Origin: Paraspadella gotoi
Lineage: Eukaryota; Animalia; Chaetognatha
Assembly (NCBI GenBank): GCA_051294375.1
Contig: CM119263.1
Location: 28,319,569-28,334,293, forward strand
Length of the DNA stretch: 14,725 bases
Reading direction: 5' to 3'
The notes below the pieces were generated by a model. That model had not been told where the DNA came from. It saw only the letters and a list, made by a program, of their open reading frames with translations, and did no database searches. Position numbers and translations under genes: made by a program. This document shows positions 10 to 12,682 of this stretch, piece by piece. Position 1 is the first letter of the stretch. Every line of letters begins with the position of its first letter.

Positions 10-698
10 TGCTCTGAACTTCGTCTCGATCGTTGCCTCACTTGTTTAATTCGAAATAAGTTCATCCCGCCTCTAAGCATGACACCTTCAGTCTTGACCC
101 GGTGGTTCATTGAGTAAAGCCATCAGCTCATGATCACTAGGTATCGGGTTCAATTCCAACCCGCTACCCTCGCCTCGGGAAGAGTGAGGATGGCCTTGGA
201 GGCCTGGAAAACCCTCAAGTCTGGTTCCAAACCAAGGACCCATTCCATGGCTGCAAGAGGGGGTAAAAGAAGTTGTGGAAAGCATTATTCAGCTCGCTAA
301 GAGCCTTATCCAATATCCATACTGGTGAGCCCATCTTGTCGAGCGTATTCCAACCTTCTGATTCCAGGCCCCTGGACTTGCTGAAGATTGCTCCACTCCC
401 TCCACTGAAAGCACTGCAGGGTGGGTTACAATCGGGGGACATGTAGTCGAACTTTGCTTAATTTCACCCCGCCAATAAGCATGACACCTTCATTGTTGAT
501 CCGGTGGCTCAGTGACTAAAGCCACTAAACCCACCCGGTTCCTACCCTGCAGAAAGCGTGAGGATGGCCGTAAACCGTCTTGAGGGCGTGGAAAACCCTC
601 AAGCCTGATTCCAAGCCCAGGAACCGTTCCATGGCTGCAAGAGGCGGTTAAAGAAGTTGCGGATAACACTCTTCATCTCACTTAGCGCCTTATCCACA
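10..698 (+). mobile_element. TRIM (non-autonomous miniature LTR retrotransposon) #1 with tRNA-like cassette in its LTRs
   Basis: Two diverged direct repeats: ~10/41-321 and 442-698; the second starts TGTAG and ends TATCCACA (TG...CA). PBS-like TGGTGAGCCC at 323-332 directly follows LTR1, and a short G tract (GGGGGACA, 434-441) abuts LTR2. The ~120 bp internal region is non-coding. The 5' end of LTR1 is uncertain and may lie outside the window; no TSD could be confirmed. Confidence 0.75.
96..165 (+). promoter_or_regulatory. tRNA-derived Pol III internal promoter (A and B boxes) inside LTR1 of TRIM #1
   Basis: A-box-like TGGTTCATTGAG at 103-114 (TGGCTCAGTGAC at 505-516 in LTR2), anticodon-loop-like CTCATGA, and B box GGTTCAATTCC at 147-157. 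LTR2 has lost the B-box segment by deletion but keeps CCGGTTC, which partly pairs with GATCCGG like an acceptor stem. Not an intact tRNA. Confidence 0.7.
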
Positions 699-933: not shown

Positions 934-3843
934 TTAGACAAAGACCTTTCGCTCACAGAGTATGGCCTCTCGGCAACTGTGACAACGATCTAGTTTCATA
1001 GCGCAATTGGAGCAACTCAAATGTCCGCAATCGAAGGCGATGTCCCTCGGCGATTCCAGACATACGATGCATAGACGTTCTTCCTCCATCTGTTCCATCT
1101 CTCTCAACATTCCTTCTTTTTCCAATTCGATCCTTAGATTTTCGCAAGCGATATCTTGAGTCAGGAGGCAAAGATATTTCATTTCCGAATGAATTTCTCG
1201 CAGGTATTCAAGTTTCAGTTGGAGTTGCTCTTGCTTTTCATGCTTTTCCTGCTTTTCATACTTTTCCTGCTTTTCCTGCTTTTCCTGCTTAGTTTCTGGC
1301 TCCGATGCTTGTTTTTCCTCTTCCAGCATCTTCCGTTCTTCTTCAATTGCCTTAATTTGCTTTTCAATTTGAGCTTCTTTTGTAAAAATGCAATTTTCTC
1401 TTTTTTTTTCATCGCAATAATTTTGATTTGATTGTATAAAAGACTCTTTTTGTTGCTCCAAAATGTTTTTATCCAGTAAAATTCGACGATTTTCTTCCTT
1501 CAACCGCTGTCGCTCTTCAAACAATTCTTTATGCATGACTTCGAATTGTCTTTTTTCGGCTAAAATAATTCCATTTCTTTCTATCAATTCCATTTTCTCG
1601 TCGGTCAATTTTCTTTGCAACTGATTTTTCTGTTTATTCAGCTGATTTATTTTATTTTCATTGCTCTTTCGTAACTTATTGTTTTCCTCCGTTTTTCTCC
1701 CATTTTCTTCTTTCAATCTTTTTTCTCTCTTCAAATAGTCTACCTTTTCTTTCCTCAAGTTTTTTACGGTTCGGGAAAGCCTTTCCTGCTCGTAATGCCA
1801 ATAATCTCTATCGTCCTCTACTTGTTTTATTTGTTTCGTCATTTTTTTTACTTTATTGAATAAGATGATCTCTAATCGTTTCACCTTCTCCAAATTCTCT
1901 TGTAAACTTTCATTCAGATATTGGTTCTCCTCTTCTATTTTTTCATTTTGCGTGATTAAACGGGTCACCCTGTTGCTAAAGTTGTTATGCAATTCGTTTT
2001 TCTTCCTTTCCAGTTTAGTATTTAGTTCTAATAGGTTTTCTTTTTCCTCTCTCAACTTCTTATTTTGTTTGAGCAACTTTTCCCTTTCTCTCAGCTCAAT
2101 TTTATTATCTTTCGACGTCGCCCTCGTTAATTCTTTGCCTAGGTCGTCATCTGATGTTGTATTTTCCATTGCATTTTCTGCAACATCGTCCTTGCTGGAA
2201 TTTTTGACGTCAATAAATTCGTTATTCTCGTCACTTGAATCTTTGTCATCGTCACCTTTGTCATCAACGTCTTCGTCGTCATTAACTTTACAATTTTCAA
2301 TGCAGTTTTCTTCTCCTTTGATTTTTAAGCCGACATCGTCATGTGAATCGTTAATGCTCAAATAATGATCATCCCAGTTTCTGTGACCGTCAACGTTATA
2401 TTGATTGCGAGCAGGCCGACAATTAGCCGATCCTCGGATGTCTTGCACTATTTGATTTTTGAGAATCATTGGTTGGTTGGAAGAGTTATCGGCGAAACCA
2501 GCGTCGTTGACAAGTTCTCTGTTGCTGACATAGTCTCCAACGCTGACACGGTCTCCATCATGGACATGTTCTCCGTCACTGACATAGTCTCCTTCACTGA
2601 TTTTTTTTTCATTGCTTTCATGGTCTCCGTTGCTGACATGGTCGCCTTCACTGACATGGTCTTTGTAGATAACATGTTCTCTATCACTGACTTTTTCTTT
2701 GTTGCTGAAATTGTCTTTGTCGCTGACATGGTCTCCATCACTAACATGGTCTATAATGCTGACTTGGTCTCCATTGCTGACATGGTCACCATTGCTGACT
2801 TGGTCTCCGTCACTGACATGGTGTATATTGCTGACATGGTCACCATTGCTGACATGGTCTCCGTCACTGACATGGTCTCTATCGCTGACATGGTCTCTGT
2901 CACTGAGATAGTCTTTGTCACTAACATTGTCTTTGTCACTGACATGGTCTCCATCGCTGACTTGATCTCCATCGCTGACATAGTCTCCTTCACTGACTTT
3001 TTCTTTGTCGCTGACTTTTTCTTCATTGACATGGTCTCTGTTGCTGACATGGTTTCCGTTCATGATATGGTCTATGTTGCTGACATGTTCTCCATCGCTG
3101 ACTTGATCCCCATCGCTGACATAGTCTCCTTTACTGACTTTTTCTTCATTGCTGTCATAGTCTCCGTTGCTGTCATGGTTTCCATCACTGACATGGTCTA
3201 TGTTGCTGACATGTTCTCCATCGGTGACTTGATCTCCATCGCTGACATAGTCTCCTTTACTGACTTTTTCTTCATTGCTGTCATAGTCTCCGTTGCTGTC
3301 ATGGTTTCCATCACTGACATGGTCTATGTTGCTGACATGTTTTCCATCACTGACATGGTTTTCCTCACTGGCTTTTTCTTTATCGCTGACATTGTCTTGG
3401 ACATTGTCATGGGCTCCACCACTGACATGTTCTCCATTGCTGCAATGGTCTCCATGGCTGACATGGTCTTTGTAACTGACACAGTCTTCGTCACTGACAT
3501 TGTCTTTGTTGCTGACGTTGTCTTTGTCGCTGACATGGTCTCCGTCGCTGACACGATCTCCATTGCTGACATGGTCTCCGTAACTGAATTTGTCATTGAG
3601 ATAGTCGACTTTCTTTCCAAATTTTTTAAGCTGAATTCTGAAGCAGTCAACGCAGAGGTTGAAATCGCATTGGAGGCACCCGAAGGTCTCGACGTGGTTC
3701 AAGTGCCGACGATCTACTTGAGAGTCGCATCTGGAACAGATTTGGAAAGAATCCGGATCGATCCGTCCCAAGAGATGACCTCGAAGACAAGTCACGTGAT
3801 CCGGTTCATTGAGCGATTCGGAAGAGGGCCAGGCGGTAGCCAT
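934..3843 (-). CDS. Intronless 969-aa protein: ZZ-like zinc finger + (VSDGDH)n repeat + acidic region + coiled coil + C-terminal C3HC4 RING; putative E3 ubiquitin ligase
   Basis: Long ATG-to-TAA ORF. N-terminal CxxGH...CxxC...GCxxCDFNLCxxC at aa19-67 (nt 3643-3789). C-terminal CIVC...CGHLSCxxC...CxxC at aa925-957 (nt 973-1071) resembles the last RING of Mind bomb, RGLG and IAP proteins. An E/K/L-rich heptad region precedes the RING. Confidence 0.9.
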   Translation of the reverse strand: MATAWPSSESLNEPDHVTCLRGHLLGRIDPDSFQICSRCDSQVDRRHLNHVETFGCLQCDFNLCVDCFRIQLKKFGKKVDYLNDKFSYGDHVSNGDRVSDGDHVSDKDNVSNKDNVSDEDCVSYKDHVSHGDHCSNGEHVSGGAHDNVQDNVSDKEKASEENHVSDGKHVSNIDHVSDGNHDSNGDYDSNEEKVSKGDYVSDGDQVTDGEHVSNIDHVSDGNHDSNGDYDSNEEKVSKGDYVSDGDQVSDGEHVSNIDHIMNGNHVSNRDHVNEEKVSDKEKVSEGDYVSDGDQVSDGDHVSDKDNVSDKDYLSDRDHVSDRDHVSDGDHVSNGDHVSNIHHVSDGDQVSNGDHVSNGDQVSIIDHVSDGDHVSDKDNFSNKEKVSDREHVIYKDHVSEGDHVSNGDHESNEKKISEGDYVSDGEHVHDGDRVSVGDYVSNRELVNDAGFADNSSNQPMILKNQIVQDIRGSANCRPARNQYNVDGHRNWDDHYLSINDSHDDVGLKIKGEENCIENCKVNDDEDVDDKGDDDKDSSDENNEFIDVKNSSKDDVAENAMENTTSDDDLGKELTRATSKDNKIELREREKLLKQNKKLREEKENLLELNTKLERKKNELHNNFSNRVTRLITQNEKIEEENQYLNESLQENLEKVKRLEIILFNKVKKMTKQIKQVEDDRDYWHYEQERLSRTVKNLRKEKVDYLKREKRLKEENGRKTEENNKLRKSNENKINQLNKQKNQLQRKLTDEKMELIERNGIILAEKRQFEVMHKELFEERQRLKEENRRILLDKNILEQQKESFIQSNQNYCDEKKRENCIFTKEAQIEKQIKAIEEERKMLEEEKQASEPETKQEKQEKQEKYEKQEKHEKQEQLQLKLEYLREIHSEMKYLCLLTQDIACENLRIELEKEGMLREMEQMEEERLCIVCLESPRDIAFDCGHLSCSNCAMKLDRCHSCREAILCERKVFV
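1228..1292 (-). repeat. Coding 9-bp tandem repeat (CTTTTCCTG on +; QEK tripeptide)
   Basis: Encodes KQEKQEKQEKYEKQEKHEKQEQ in the 969-aa protein. Confidence 0.85.
2520..3590 (-). repeat. Coding 18-bp tandem repeat (GTCAGTGACGGAGACCAT = VSDGDH) with a 126-bp higher-order unit
   Basis: Hexapeptide periodicity is visible throughout. The marker TCTATGTTGC recurs at 3071, 3197 and 3323, i.e. a 126-bp (7 hexapeptide) period. Confidence 0.95.
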
Positions 3844-3869
3844 CTTGGTCGGGATTATTAGCGAAAAAA

Positions 3870-3911
3870 CAGTATGCGCGTCGGTTCAGTGTGCACGTCG
3901 GTTTAGTGTGC
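3870..3911 (-). promoter_or_regulatory. 17-bp tandem motif just upstream of the RING gene start
   Basis: CGTCGGTTCAGTGTGCA (3879-3895), CGTCGGTTTAGTGTGC (3896-3911) and a partial third copy CAGTATGCG, 27-68 bp upstream of the ATG. A regulatory role is inferred from position only. Confidence 0.3.
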
Positions 3912-4221: not shown

Positions 4222-5763
4222 CTCGGGACTAAGTGACCGACTTCACTTGCGATCCGCAGGAAGAGGGTCATCTCGTTCCAATGTGACTGATATGGTGACG
4301 TCATAAAGTTCGATTTATAAAATTTACTAACTTTTAATTTAAGTCGCGCAATAAACGCAGGACGAACTTATTATTGACGAAACCCAAACTAAAAATGTCA
4401 TTTTATATGGGAATTTCATTTATTACCAAAAATGTTAGAAACTGGTCGGTCACATGGAAACATATCAAAACTATAAACTACATATACGTATCTAAACTTT
4501 TTCCGAACTTTAAATTTATCAGAATTGTGGCAAAACGTCCAAGTTTTCGGTGAACAATCGAAATACTTTGTTCTTTTCTCCAAGTGATCAAGACATACTA
4601 TCTAATATTAAAAAGACATTTTAGAGGTTCAGAACGTTTATTCTTGCCTACCTGAGTAATAGTAGTGAATGCTTGGTAGTTTGAACGTAAAGGTGTAAAG
4701 AGTTTTGAGAACATTCAAGCAAAAATACTGTGATTCTTTTTATTCGTCTTTCTCATCCCAGCTTAAATAATAAAAAATGAATGGAAACCCTTTGTTTCTG
4801 AGAAATTATGCAGATAGCATGAGAGCCTCTTAGGGTGAGCGGAGAGAGATGAAGACTCAAGGATTAGATTTTGGAAAACAAAATAGCAATTTGTTATAGA
4901 AGATTTTCCTGAGGCGAGCTAATACTTTTCGTGAGTGACTAAAATTTGTGTGGCAATATTTTTAAAACTTCTAATCATTCTCTAGAATCTGTTTTTTTTT
5001 TCAATTATATAATAATTATCAATTATTAATTGTAGTGGTTGTTGAAATTTCATAGAAATTTATGTGTCTCATTTTTTTTTTAGTTTTTTTCAGAAACGAT
5101 ATTGATATTCTAACGAGAATTTCCCGGGTTGACCGGGCTGTTGTACATTGTTTCTCATTTCATTGTGCAAAGCCACCGGCGAATTATCACCAAATAGGAT
5201 TTTTAATCAAGCTAATGAAAGATATACGTTTTCCAACAAAGTGGAGTTGAGGTTGTCGAGATAAAAATAATGAACAAAATGAGATGAATCGATTTATTGA
5301 AATCAGAAAAGCGAATGGAATCGAATTGGCTAATTGTACAAAGTGGCATTTATTTTTAAAGAGAGAGAAACTTTGGTTACATTGCTAAACAAAACAATAC
5401 AAAAAATAATTCAAAATAATTTTTTATCGGGCAATGGAATTTATAAAGAACTCGTCTGGCGATTTTATTTTCTTTCTTATATAATAATACTCAGGATCTC
5501 CACTCGGCCACACTACCAAAGAAAGCAAATAAATGAGCATCAATTAATAAAATAATTCGCTAATTTAAAACTAATGGATATTAGAGAGCTTAACATGATT
5601 GGGCTTCTTGAGGTGGAACACACGAGATCTTCTCCAGTAAAAACTTGTTCATTGCCGGTCTAACAGATGGAGAATTCTCCCAGGCGGCAGGCGTGACGAT
5701 TTGCCTGACATCAAAACGGACGAGTTTGACAATACAGTTTTCTCCAGAACAACATTTGTAGTC

Positions 5764-7189
5764 TCAGCTTGGAATCTGGAGATGCTCTCCAAGCCGGACT
5801 CATTGTGGACGAAGTCTTCTTTGCTTTGATCCTCACAGATGAGAGAAATTCGCCCAGTCTTCGTCCAGGTGTCCCTTCATCTGAATCCCAAGTGGCATCT
5901 CTTATTTTTGTACCAGTCCAGGCAGTTGCAGACGATGCCTGGTTGCGGTGAGAATGGCGTCTCCCCGCGCCTGCTGTCCCATAAGACGCGCTTGCTGACG
6001 ATGCTTGACGCGAGCAGCAGGTGATCAAAGTGGGTTTTTCTTGGCGTCACACACACTTTGACACGATCGTTCGGTCTCGATCGATTTGTTGACGCAATCC
6101 AGTGTCCATCTGTCTACAAAGGATGTGATGAACTGTGGAATCACTTGCCGGTAAGGTCATCCACATGGCGTCGGTCGGTGCTTGCTAGCAAATCCAATGC
6201 GCCTGACACTCCCAGCCCGAAGTCGGATCCCAGCTCACCTCACTCCCCGTCTGCAGGGTTGAGATGGAACTAAGTTCCAGATGATGGTGCTCTTGGACGC
6301 CATTCCAAATTGTCTGTAGCGACCACCAATGAACAGAGTTCATGACTGATGACGTTTAAAATAGAAATCTCAATGACGGAATGATGATAGAGAATTTGAT
6401 TCTTGACATCTTATTGCTTTAACCCACCACCGAATCCACCCAGAGACGAATGTGGATTGACTGCTTGTGATGAAGGTCTCCCATGACTGCGCTACCTTGT
6501 CCACCACCAGCCAACAGAGAGATGTCAGTCAAAACGTGACTGACTGCCGCGGTCCTCCTTTGGTGACAGAATTGTCGATCTGACGCGAATCCACAATCCA
6601 CGCAACTCATTTTGAAAGTCTCTCATTCACAATCAGGAAATTACAATAATCAATACAGAAAAAAACTATGCGCTCTCCATTACTATTTTTACACAGTATG
6701 AAAAATTTAAAAGGAAGAACTAATGTTTTTAAGAAAAAACAATTATTGTGCAAAGAATCTAAACTGCTGACTATGTGACAATAATAATTTTTTTTTCTCA
6801 ACTTTTCCGTTCACTTCTCAGTCCAACACAGACGTGGCGACTGCAGATGACGGAACTGATAGCAGATGATGCTGTAGACTTCGGAGATTGCGCCAGGGAT
6901 CGGAGATGGGGTCAAAAAGAGGAGGATGGGGATCTGTGGCCCATAGGGTTCAAGTAAAAAAATTTTAAATTCATTTTTACGCACAAAATTTCATTTCCAC
7001 CCTTTCACATGACAGGATCTTTCATAGCAGACAATCTAGTCAAGTACTGTTTTTTTGTGAACGTCATTGAGTGAAGGTCTTCTCCACCGTCGTTGCCTTC
7101 CTGGCCACATGTGGACGCTTCCAATCATGTGGTTGATTTTCATCTCTTGTCCAGACCCGACCGTAGTTGAACCACCGGCAGATTGCTTT
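5764..7189 (-). pseudogene. Decayed Mutator-like (MULE) transposase with C-terminal SWIM finger, probably intron-containing
   Basis: GC-richer blocks separated by AT-rich gaps, with no long ORF. Minus-strand fragments occur in MULE order: MTFTKKQYLTRL (~7030-7070), PILLFLTP...EVYSIICYQFRHL (~6840-6935), FASDR...AVSHVL then SLCW (~6500-6600), SWIM-like CNCLDWYKNKRC-H (5892-5930), and a basic tail with TGA stops at 5833-5835 and 5800-5802 that look like CGA>TGA decay. A TTTTTCAG acceptor ends at 7190. Confidence 0.6.
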
Positions 7190-8535: not shown

Positions 8536-8786
8536 GTGACTCACATAGTTGAGAATGAGTTGAATGAGAGGATTGATTGATATAAAACAAGTTTGTAGGA
8601 TACAATTTCACGTGTTGAAATATAAACATCCCTTTTAAATTTCGTAATAATTAAGTACTGATTTATATGTATTGAAGAGACAGTGATAATTGTTATGTGT
8701 TAGTGACAGAACCGTTCAATATAAGCAGTTCAGGCTATAACACCGTGTTACAGGCGGGTTAAGCGCCCCGTCCCTCTTAACTGTTA

Positions 8787-8859
8787 GGCGGCCACCGGGC
8801 TAGAACCCCGGACCTTTGGGTTGAGAGGCGAATGACTTGCCTCCGGCACCAATAGCTGC
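8787..8859 (-). ncRNA. tRNA-derived sequence in the 3' LTR of TRIM #2 (pseudo-tRNA)
   Basis: 73 nt. Imperfect acceptor stem GCAGCTA/TGGCCGC, A-box-like TGGTGCCGGAGG, T-arm CCGGG-GTTCTAG-CCCGG. D and anticodon arms pair poorly. Confidence 0.65.
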
Positions 8860-9202
8860 TGATGAATGGTTGGGGGATTTTAGTCCACCATACATCCCCC
8901 CTCCCGTAAGTAGAAGTCTTGCGTCTCTTCTGTGAATTGTTGTTGGTGGAAAGTTCGTCACCAAGTTGAGGCATGTCGCCTGATGTGTTGTTGGCGTAAA
9001 GTGCATCGCCAGATTGAGGCATGTCGCCTGAAAGTGTTGTTGTTGCTGTTGTGTTCGGAAGTCGGGCTCACCAATGAAGAGACAGTGATAATTGTTATGT
9101 GTTAGTGATAGAACCATTCAATATAAGCAGTCCCTGAGCTTCGGATCAGGCTGTAATACCGTGTTACAGGCGGGTTAAGCGTCCCGTCCCTCTTAACTGC
9201 TA

Positions 9203-9275
9203 GGCGACCACCGGGCTAGAACCCCGGACCTTTGGGTTGGGAGGCGAAAGACTTGACTCCGGCACAAATGGCCGC
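9203..9275 (-). ncRNA. tRNA-derived sequence in the 5' LTR of TRIM #2 (Gly/Glu-like pseudo-tRNA)
   Basis: 73 nt. 7-bp acceptor stem GCGGCCA/TGGTCGC and T-arm CCGGG-GTTCTAG-CCCGG. TTCGCCTCCCAA resembles the tRNA-Gly anticodon region, but the anticodon stem is broken. Confidence 0.7.
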
Positions 9276-9324
9276 TGATGAACGGTTGGTGGATTTTAGT
9301 CCCTCAATATTGTCAGGCACTCAC

Positions 9325-11943: not shown

Positions 11944-12682
11944 TGTTGCGCCGCAGTGACTTTGTTATCCCGTGTATTTCCGTGGATTTTTAATACTTAC
12001 TGCGCCGCCTTCAGGAAATTTTAAAACTATAAAGAATAAAAGGCGATGCAGTGCAATATAAAGTTTGGGCCTTTTCAATCATTGATGCCCCCTTGCCGTA
12101 TGATGGAGCAGTGAATCTCTCTAGCTCTCTCTCTGGCTGGATGACTTAGAGTCAGGATCGGGTTTGACTAATACGATGACGATAATTTGAACGATGTATT
12201 AATTGTTTAGGGTTTCGGTTAGGGATAAGGTTAGTTTAGGCGATAGATATTAGGGATTAGGGTTGGAATTAGGATTAGGGATTAGGGTTGTGATAAGGGT
12301 TAGGGATCAGGGTTAGGATAAGGGTCATTTTTCCCGACGCTACTTTTGCAACAATAAAATTCTGACTTGCTGGGTGACTCAGCAAGAGAAAGAATTAAGC
12401 CTCCGTCAGGATCGGGATCAACAGAAAAAAGGACAATAATTTGAACGATGGAGGAAGCAGTTGTGACGGTGAGAGAGATGACAAAAGGAGTGACTCATAA
12501 AATGATGATGGAAGTAGCAAAAGATACAATTTTTGTGCGTGTGTTTGAGTCCACTGCTTTAGGAGCCGCAGCAAGGGGGCTTCTTTGAAAAAAAGTGCCC
12601 AAGTTTGTTTGTTATACATAAATGTCCTAGTCATGTGATCACAGGGAAATACACGTTAAAAGAAAGTCACTGTGGCGCAACA
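11944..12682. mobile_element. MITE / non-autonomous DNA transposon with ~38-bp imperfect TIRs
   Basis: TGTTGCGCCGCAGTGACTTTGTTATCCCGTGTATTTCC (11944-11981) is an inverted match to 12645-12682, with weaker inverted similarity at ~11996-12014 vs ~12557-12575. No clear TSD; superfamily unknown. Confidence 0.7.
12207..12324 (+). repeat. Degenerate (TTAGGG)n-like interstitial array inside the MITE
   Basis: Repeated TTAGGG, TTAGGGA, TAAGGG and TCAGGG variants. Confidence 0.8.

What the first reader, a model, noticed from the sequence alone, without database searches (positions are those of the whole stretch)
8673..9306. Miniature LTR retroelement whose LTRs contain a full-length tRNA-like Pol III cassette
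Seen: TG...CA LTR pair, PBS, PPT, a ~180-bp non-coding interior, and a 73-nt tRNA-like fold (acceptor and T stems kept) in both LTRs, in the same orientation as the PBS and PPT. Known: Cassandra TRIMs carry 5S RNA in their LTRs and, from memory, Helenus/TRIMp3 elements carry tRNA-like sequence. Inference: a Pol III-driven TRIM family, a SINE/LTR hybrid that may be new for this lineage.
Basis: partly seen in the sequence, partly recalled or inferred. Interest (0 to 1): 0.8.

Follow-up and report, generated by a model that had tools for sequence, protein, structure and literature searches.

The report
tRNA-headed mini-retrotransposon carrying twister ribozymes
A very abundant, gene-less miniature LTR retrotransposon carries in each terminal repeat a decayed tRNA-like unit (likely a promoter) followed by a twister-ribozyme fold, so its RNA is predicted to cut itself to unit length and would likely circularise, a design described so far with a different ribozyme and only in plants.

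Summary
The element is real and multi-copy: two LTRs (8673-8892, 9075-9302), PBS, PPT and a 182-bp interior, at thousands of times the depth of its flank, with many unrelated flanks at both ends. Two corrections: the family ends are TA...CA, not TG...CA, and this copy's 5' LTR is clipped by 6 nt against a neighbouring repeat, so no TSD is readable. The tRNA-like unit is full-length in span but decayed (10-14 bits, D arm lost), which fits Helenus (Kojima 2024). It keeps the catalytic G and A and both pseudoknots, and 10 of 24 pairs are compensated against a second family in this window. P1 is reduced to a 6-nt palindrome. Best reading: a Helenus/retrozyme hybrid that likely cuts out a 416-nt unit and circularises it. 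Cleavage, Pol III use and circles are untested, and Rfam does not call the motif. This copy is probably dead. The scan noted this design before on other DNA of the same genome; that lead changed my reading.

The parts
9075..9302 (-). 5' LTR, lacking the terminal 6 nt of the family end; joined at 9301-9302 to a different high-copy repeat
   Evidence: loose ends at 9302 and 9301
9203..9275 (-). tRNA-like unit, 73 nt: 7-bp acceptor-like stem, T-arm hairpin with B box at 9223-9213, D arm decayed; likely Pol III promoter
9126..9201 (-). type-P5 twister fold: closing stem 9201-9195/9132-9126, P2' 9192-9189, general-base G 9188, P1 linker 9183-9178, predicted cut 9177|9176, P2 9174-9172, T2 9171-9170, P3 9169-9151, P4 9150-9146/9137-9133, L4 9145-9138
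9178..9183 (-). 6-nt P1 linker; self-complementarity broken at 9182 in this copy, while 91-99% of contig depth differs from the window there
9061..9073 (-). primer-binding site; 12 of 13 nt match the tRNA-Trp PBS of Gypsy-32_NVi and Helenus-2_SyJa; exact primer not identified
8893..9074 (-). internal region, 182 bp, with two ~48-nt repeats; no Pfam match in the open frame
8895..8905 (-). polypurine tract, 2 nt before the 3' LTR
8673..8892 (-). 3' LTR, TA...CA termini; 14-nt deletion between 8730 and 8729 removes L4 and P4' of its twister (rare among contigs)
8787..8859 (-). tRNA-like unit of the 3' LTR
8730..8785 (-). 5' part of the 3' LTR twister, with intact self-complementary linker 8767-8762 and predicted cut 8761|8760
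8761..9176 (-). predicted 416-nt unit RNA between the two cut sites (inferred)

Best explanation
This is a decayed copy of a very abundant non-coding miniature LTR retrotransposon whose LTR joins a tRNA-like unit, likely a Pol III promoter, to a type-P5 twister fold that is predicted to cut the transcript once in each LTR and release a 416-nt unit that would likely be circularised and copied by a Gypsy reverse transcriptase. Shown: LTR-PBS-interior-PPT-LTR anatomy, high copy depth, precise ends, the tRNA-like unit, and the twister fold with compensated pairs. Inferred steps: (1) Pol III starts near 9275 and reads through, as the sense strand has no T4 run; (2) each twister cuts at U|AA; (3) the 6-nt palindromic P1 linkers of the two LTRs pair with each other, so cutting would need both LTRs and a monomer circle with one palindrome would be stable; (4) the unit has no terminal redundancy, so ligation to a circle (RtcB-type, as shown in vitro for animal hammerhead retrozymes) would replace strand transfer; (5) a tRNA (Trp-like PBS) primes copying and a Gypsy integrase inserts the DNA at AT-rich 4-bp sites. 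This particular copy is probably inactive.
For: Copy depth of the interior is 5,600-6,400 times the flank in 3 of 3 DNA runs (the tool warns this is no copy number). Twister descriptor: 1 hit in the window, 0 of 50,000 LTR shuffles, 1 hit in 8.8 Mb of shuffled window. A relaxed descriptor adds a second hit in a different TRIM family at 556-621, with 1 of 30,000 and 0 of 30,000 shuffles. MAFFT aligns the two motifs in register; 95% of cells pair and 10 of 24 pairs change on both sides, including 2 of 3 in pseudoknot T1 and 2 of 3 in the palindrome; slid controls give 0-2. A 19-nt P4/L4 pattern taken from the two families fetched 8 viral loci; of the 7 scanned, 4 (3 distinct) are Rfam Twister-P5 above gathering. 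Among 57 distinct phage P5 twisters, 17 have the same 3-nt P2 strand, 1 has this family's exact T1 pairing and 24 the second family's. Contig majorities keep P3, the palindrome and the acceptor stem paired where this copy breaks them, and the 14-nt deletion is under 0.3% of depth. P1 and P2 flaws are tolerated by natural twisters (PMC11662667 section 32). tRNA model: the four LTR units of the two elements rank 1-4 of 7.
Against: No cleavage, RNA start, circle or strand data. Rfam does not call a twister in the window even at E<=10. A model from 52 phage P5 twisters gives only 18.2 bits (E 0.006) and 13 bits (E 0.08), mostly from P4/L4, aligns the 5' half in another register, and its training set was picked on the L4 motif. 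The descriptor was written after I had seen the sequence. Covariation rests on two families. No phage twister has a P1 linker under 10 nt, so activity with a 6-nt linker has no precedent in my data, and a one-pair P1 with a tetraloop is also possible. The A box is weak; absence of T4 is weak evidence (10% of shuffles also lack it). No TSD can be read on this copy. The predicted circle is only 49% paired.
Confidence: 0.6

Rival explanations
1. The twister is active but serves as an end-maker for a linear RNA. Cutting in only one LTR (the 3' one in place of the missing Pol III terminator, or the 5' one to drop the tRNA leader) leaves a terminal repeat, so ordinary LTR strand transfer works and no circle is needed.
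For: No T4 terminator in either element's sense strand. Twisters process the 5' ends of Perere-3/RTE retrotransposons without circles (PMC8501958 passages; PMC7761336 passages).
Against: The two LTRs are identical at insertion, and a palindromic P1 would activate both ribozymes together. Double cleavage and circles are shown for hammerhead LTR retrozymes.
Confidence: 0.2
2. The retrozyme-like cycle holds, but transcription is Pol II read-through from flanks and the tRNA unit is a relic or a structural or packaging element.
For: Weak A box, no Rfam tRNA match; known retrozymes are described as promoter-less.
Against: B box and acceptor/T stems are kept in the contig majority; the second family has clear A and B boxes in the same position; no T4 in either element.
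Confidence: 0.1
3. A plain Helenus TRIM in which the twister-like fold is inactive or a fossil.
For: No Rfam call; P1 hairpin absent; both ribozymes of this copy are damaged.
Against: Catalytic residues and both pseudoknots are kept with compensation across two otherwise dissimilar families; the damage seen in this copy is a minority state among contigs.
Confidence: 0.09
4. A one-off local duplication of a SINE-bearing segment.
For: No TSD on this copy.
Against: Interior and LTRs at thousands of times flank depth; sharp shared ends with unrelated flanks in 4 of 4 runs; PBS and PPT in place.
Confidence: 0.01

Closest known systems
Helenus TRIMs (TRIMp3; Kojima 2024, PMC10886601)
   Same: Short non-coding LTR element with PBS, PPT and a tRNA-like unit in each LTR; size (about 650 bp) in range; PBS nearly that of Helenus-2_SyJa and Gypsy-32_NVi; animal members have 4-bp TSDs.
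   Different: The paper's text has no 'twister' and names ribozymes only for retrozymes. Six L4-type words gave 7 occurrences in its supplement; the 5 passages shown had no twister context, read by eye, and line wraps can hide words. No chaetognath is listed. A box weaker here; ends TA...CA.
Plant LTR retrozymes (Cervera et al. 2016, PMC4918200)
   Same: Non-autonomous, Gypsy-type PBS/PPT, a self-cleaving motif in each LTR, unit RNA without R region, 4-bp TSD.
   Different: They use type III hammerheads, are from plants, give 600-1000-nt circles and are described as lacking a promoter. Here the motif is a twister, a tRNA unit precedes it and the unit is 416 nt.
Animal non-LTR retrozymes and Schistosoma SINE-like hammerhead repeats (PMC7229834, PMC6765202)
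   Same: Animal; 170-400-nt units; some hammerheads cleave as dimers; the schistosome repeats join a Pol III promoter to a ribozyme.
   Different: Hammerheads in tandem repeats, stated to lack LTR, PBS and PPT.
Type-P5 twister (Rfam RF02684) and Perere-3 twister variants (PMC8501958)
   Same: Order of strands, catalytic G and A, L4, T1/T2 and P4; the Perere-3 variants are retrotransposon-borne with weak P1.
   Different: Long P3 present; P1 is a 6-nt palindrome with no loop; below Rfam's threshold. The Perere-3 table is in P1 order and the element is an autonomous LINE.
Cassandra and Ajax TRIMs
   Same: Small-RNA-derived Pol III unit inside LTRs.
   Different: 5S-derived; no 5S match here.

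Membership tests
Helenus/TRIMp3 | Two LTRs with PBS and PPT, short, non-coding, multi-copy | tested here: met
Helenus/TRIMp3 | tRNA-derived sequence in the LTR | tested here: met
   top two matches of an independent tRNA model, 13.7 and 10.3 bits; ARAGORN 84-86%; weak, no Rfam match
Helenus/TRIMp3 | Conserved A box and B box | tested here: inconclusive
   B box 10 of 11; A box one mismatch to a loose pattern in the 3' LTR only, a level met at many window sites
Helenus/TRIMp3 | 4-bp TSD (animals) | tested here: inconclusive
   this copy is clipped; majority flanks on both sides agree with an AT-rich 4-mer, but no single copy with both flanks was seen
Helenus/TRIMp3 | Pol III transcription | not testable with these tools
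   no raw RNA reads offered
LTR retrozyme | Self-cleaving ribozyme motif in each LTR of a PBS/PPT element | tested here: met
   twister fold by structure and covariation; 3' LTR copy partly deleted here
LTR retrozyme | The ribozyme is a hammerhead | tested here: not met
   no Rfam hammerhead match; plus-strand core-like words lack stem II, by eye
LTR retrozyme | Self-cleavage and circular unit RNA in vivo | not testable with these tools
   only contigs were available
Twister type P5 | Permuted order, general-base G, U|AA site, L4, pseudoknots T1 and T2, P4 | tested here: met
   against the published parse and phage examples
Twister type P5 | P2 stem | tested here: met
   3 bp with one bulge, one pair compensated; 3-nt strand in 17 of 57 phage twisters
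Twister type P5 | P1 hairpin | tested here: not met
   6-nt self-complementary linker only; 56 of 57 phage examples have 14 nt or more; P1 reported dispensable
Twister type P5 | Rfam RF02684 gathering score | tested here: not met
Twister type P5 | Site-specific cleavage | not testable with these tools
   needs an in vitro assay

The most novel reading that the evidence does not exclude
An animal LTR retrozyme built on a twister instead of a hammerhead, with its own tRNA-derived Pol III promoter. The ribozyme works only as a dimer through a palindromic P1, so the two LTRs of one transcript trigger each other and release a stable circular transposition intermediate.
Probability: 0.4. Interest if true: 0.85.

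Novelty: new variant of a known kind. Interest (0 to 1): 0.72.

Why it matters
Retrozymes with LTR, PBS and PPT are described from plants and with hammerheads; animal retrozymes are described as lacking LTRs. If this cleaves and circularises, it extends LTR retrozymes to animals, shows that a second ribozyme class reached the same life cycle, and gives a natural role for a twister. It also offers a way for a Pol III-driven LTR element to make defined ends without a terminator. A natural dimer-dependent twister would parallel dimeric hammerheads and is cheap to test. The tRNA-in-LTR part alone is known (Helenus, 2024) and would score about 0.3.

Tried and rejected
No genome was held, so no direct copy count, TSD list or search for the autonomous partner. 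No RNA holder listed; run X9 is only guessed to be RNA and was not used for expression. Exact LTR words found no copy in metagenome or viral contigs; the 11 metagenome matches to the P4/L4 word were unrelated to the element. Primer search: 22 viral loci, 1 with tRNA genes (phage tRNA-Lys), not informative for an animal. Host placement from the RING ORF failed. Hammerhead-like words on the plus strand rejected (no stem II; no Rfam match). The weak sR38 snoRNA match (19.6 bits against a gathering score of 50) rejected. I first read 9201-9125 as a second tRNA because ARAGORN calls it at 82%; it is the twister, which shows that sub-threshold ARAGORN calls are not specific. Whole-LTR folding is no more stable than shuffles (z 0.1). 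A twister in P1 order was not found. The pattern with this family's T1 pairing gave 119 viral loci, only 1 a full twister. Look-ups of earlier findings by sequence and near this place returned nothing.

Full report
Observation. Two direct repeats lie at 8673-8892 and 9075-9302, with 15 substitutions in 214 aligned bases and a 14-nt gap in the left one. On the minus strand a PBS follows the 5' LTR (9073-9061), a PPT precedes the 3' LTR (8905-8895) and the interior is 182 bp. The PBS matches 12 of 13 nt of the tRNA-Trp PBS printed for Gypsy-32_NVi and Helenus-2_SyJa. No genome was held, so I laid public contigs from 4 of the 9 listed runs. Depth rises sharply at 8673. The interior stands at 5,600-6,400 times the unique left flank in the 3 DNA runs and the LTR bins at 8,000-30,000 times. 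The tool warns that this is not a copy number; I read it as thousands of copies, probably with many solo LTRs. In each DNA run 50-106 contigs leave each listed end into unrelated DNA. A local duplication is refuted.

Corrections to the ends. Loose ends fall at 8673 and 8892, and contigs that leave at 9302 continue with the same six letters that end the other LTR. The family LTR therefore starts with TA, 2 nt after the PPT, and ends with CA. The 'TG' at 9306 belongs to a neighbouring high-copy repeat, since other contigs enter at 9301 from that repeat's own upstream sequence (table 7). This copy has lost 6 terminal bases and its TSD. Majority flanks on both sides agree with an AT-rich 4-mer, which fits a 4-bp Gypsy-type target but is not a per-copy TSD.

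The tRNA-like unit. Default ARAGORN and Rfam do not call it and it folds no better than shuffles. ARAGORN calls 9275-9203 at 86% and 8859-8787 at 84% of threshold; 8-9 of 1000 shuffled LTRs give a sense hit at 85%. That test is not specific, as it also calls the ribozyme. A covariance model from 93 of 102 selected phage tRNAs (9 left out) ranks the two units first and second of 7 matches in the window (13.7 bits, E 0.03; 10.3 bits, E 0.28) and the two units of a second element third and fourth. Acceptor stem, variable loop and T arm align; the D arm does not. The B box matches 10 of 11 and the A box is weak. The contig majority keeps the acceptor stem paired. So the unit is a decayed, full-span tRNA derivative, as in Helenus, and its use as a Pol III promoter is inferred.

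Earlier AI notes on other pieces of this genome proposed a twister ribozyme behind the tRNA unit. I tested this here. Using the published parse of twisters, a descriptor in type-P5 order hits once in the window, at 9188-9133, against 0 of 50,000 LTR shuffles and 1 hit in 8.8 Mb of shuffled window. Allowing one P4 mismatch adds a hit at 560-621 in a second TRIM family, which shares only a 23-nt blastn match with this one; shuffles give 1 of 30,000 and 0 of 30,000. I wrote the descriptor after seeing the sequence, so these rates are optimistic. MAFFT aligns the motifs in register. With 3 rows, 95% of cells pair and 10 of 24 pairs change on both sides: 1 in P2, 2 of 3 in T1, 5 in P3 and 2 of 3 in the P1 linker; slid controls give 0-2. 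The fourth LTR copy was left out there because a deletion misaligns it; with it the count is 11 of 24. These are two families, not many independent events. A 19-nt P4/L4 pattern from the two families fetched 8 viral loci; 7 were scanned (one duplicate left out) and 4 are Rfam Twister-P5 above gathering. Of 247 further viral loci, 59 pass a pairing filter (57 distinct): 17 have a 3-nt P2 strand as here, 1 has this family's T1 pairing and 24 the second family's.

Against the twister. Rfam does not call it in the window. A model from 52 of the 57 phage motifs, which lack P3 and were selected on L4, scores it 18.2 bits (E 0.006) with the 5' half in another register, and the second family 13 bits. 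The P1 hairpin is absent: 56 of 57 phage motifs have a linker of 14 nt or more, none under 10. Published tests say that P1 is dispensable or gives inefficient cleavage when absent, that P2 flaws are tolerated, and that the catalytic G and A and the pseudoknots matter; those are the parts kept here.

The palindrome. The linker between L1' and the cut site is 6 nt and self-complementary in the 3' LTR and in the second family, with different sequences. The central two bases swap together; adjacent bases cannot pair within one strand, so this points to pairing between two ribozymes. A random 6-mer is self-complementary about 5% of the time. In this copy's 5' LTR the palindrome is broken at 9182, where 91-99% of contig depth differs from the window, and the deletion that removes L4 and P4' from the 3' LTR is under 0.3% of depth. 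This copy is probably dead while the family keeps the fold. A monomer with a one-pair P1 is not excluded.

Mechanism. Shown: anatomy, abundance, ends, tRNA-like unit, twister fold. Inferred: Pol III starts near 9275 and meets no T4 run until the flank at 8587 (10% of shuffles also lack one); both twisters cut, at 9177|9176 and 8761|8760, likely after the two palindromes pair; the 416-nt unit has no terminal repeat, so it would be ligated to a circle, primed at the PBS and copied by a Gypsy element, as modelled for plant retrozymes, with RtcB ligation shown in vitro for animal hammerhead retrozymes. Confidence 0.6. The main rival (0.2) is single cleavage that makes one defined end of a linear RNA.

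Comparison and novelty. It meets the Helenus definition on structure, with TSD, A box and Pol III open. It works like an LTR retrozyme but fails the hammerhead criterion, so I do not file it there. Nine paper searches listed no report of a twister in an LTR element or of an animal LTR retrozyme; the library lacks most subscription papers, and Repbase and Dfam were not available. Precedents for the parts are Helenus, plant retrozymes, schistosome Pol III-plus-hammerhead repeats, dimeric hammerheads and twisters in Perere-3/RTE. The host is likely an arrow worm according to an unchecked note; word searches in two chaetognath genome papers found no 'ribozyme'. Verdict: new variant of a known kind, interest 0.72. 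The scan has noted the design before on other DNA of this genome, which is not independent support.

Papers seen. PMC10886601: text parts 1-5 of 6, supplement parts 1, 10 and 11 of 11, word searches; unread supplement parts hold most animal consensus sequences and may bear on whether a known Helenus has a twister. PMC8501958: passages and section 17. PMC11662667: abstract, passages, section 32. PMC6154101, PMC7761336, PMC12859917, PMC4918200, PMC2997562, PMC12460157, PMC6765202, PMC7229834: passages only. A/B-box patterns, the T1/T2 pairing scheme, Gypsy integrase end-processing and the DINE-1/HINE label are recalled.

Noticed in passing
window ~43-698 (+): A second, different tRNA-plus-twister TRIM family: LTRs ~43-320 and 441-698, the same first 10 nt of PBS at 323, tRNA-like units 96-169 and 498-543, twister core 556-621 with predicted cut 571|572, TG...CA ends, interior about 1,000 times flank depth. 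Its first LTR has a 10-nt gap through the cut site.
   Followed up: yes
window 9301-~9400: A different high-copy repeat with a GTCY-type microsatellite abuts the clipped LTR. It resembles DINE-1/HINE Helitron-derived elements; that label is recalled, not tested.
   Followed up: partly
window 934-3885 (-): Uninterrupted 983-codon ORF: N-terminal zinc-finger-like part (atlas score 0.87, a lead only), about 50 six-residue repeats, coiled coil, C-terminal RING (PF13920, E 2e-06); no homologues found.
   Followed up: partly
window 8893-9074 (-): The interior holds two ~48-nt repeats in an open frame whose basic end runs into the PPT, like the tail of a Gypsy pol gene (recalled resemblance; no Pfam match).
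   Followed up: partly
window 11944-12682: 41-nt inverted repeats around a stretch with TTAGGG-like repeats; possibly a MITE.
   Followed up: no
L256:36-93, L037:355-418 and other loci L042-L169: 57 distinct phage type-P5 twister parses, including 3-bp-P2 forms and one with this family's T1 pairing.
   Followed up: partly
window 5700-6650: GC-richer stretch with broken frames, not identified.
   Followed up: no
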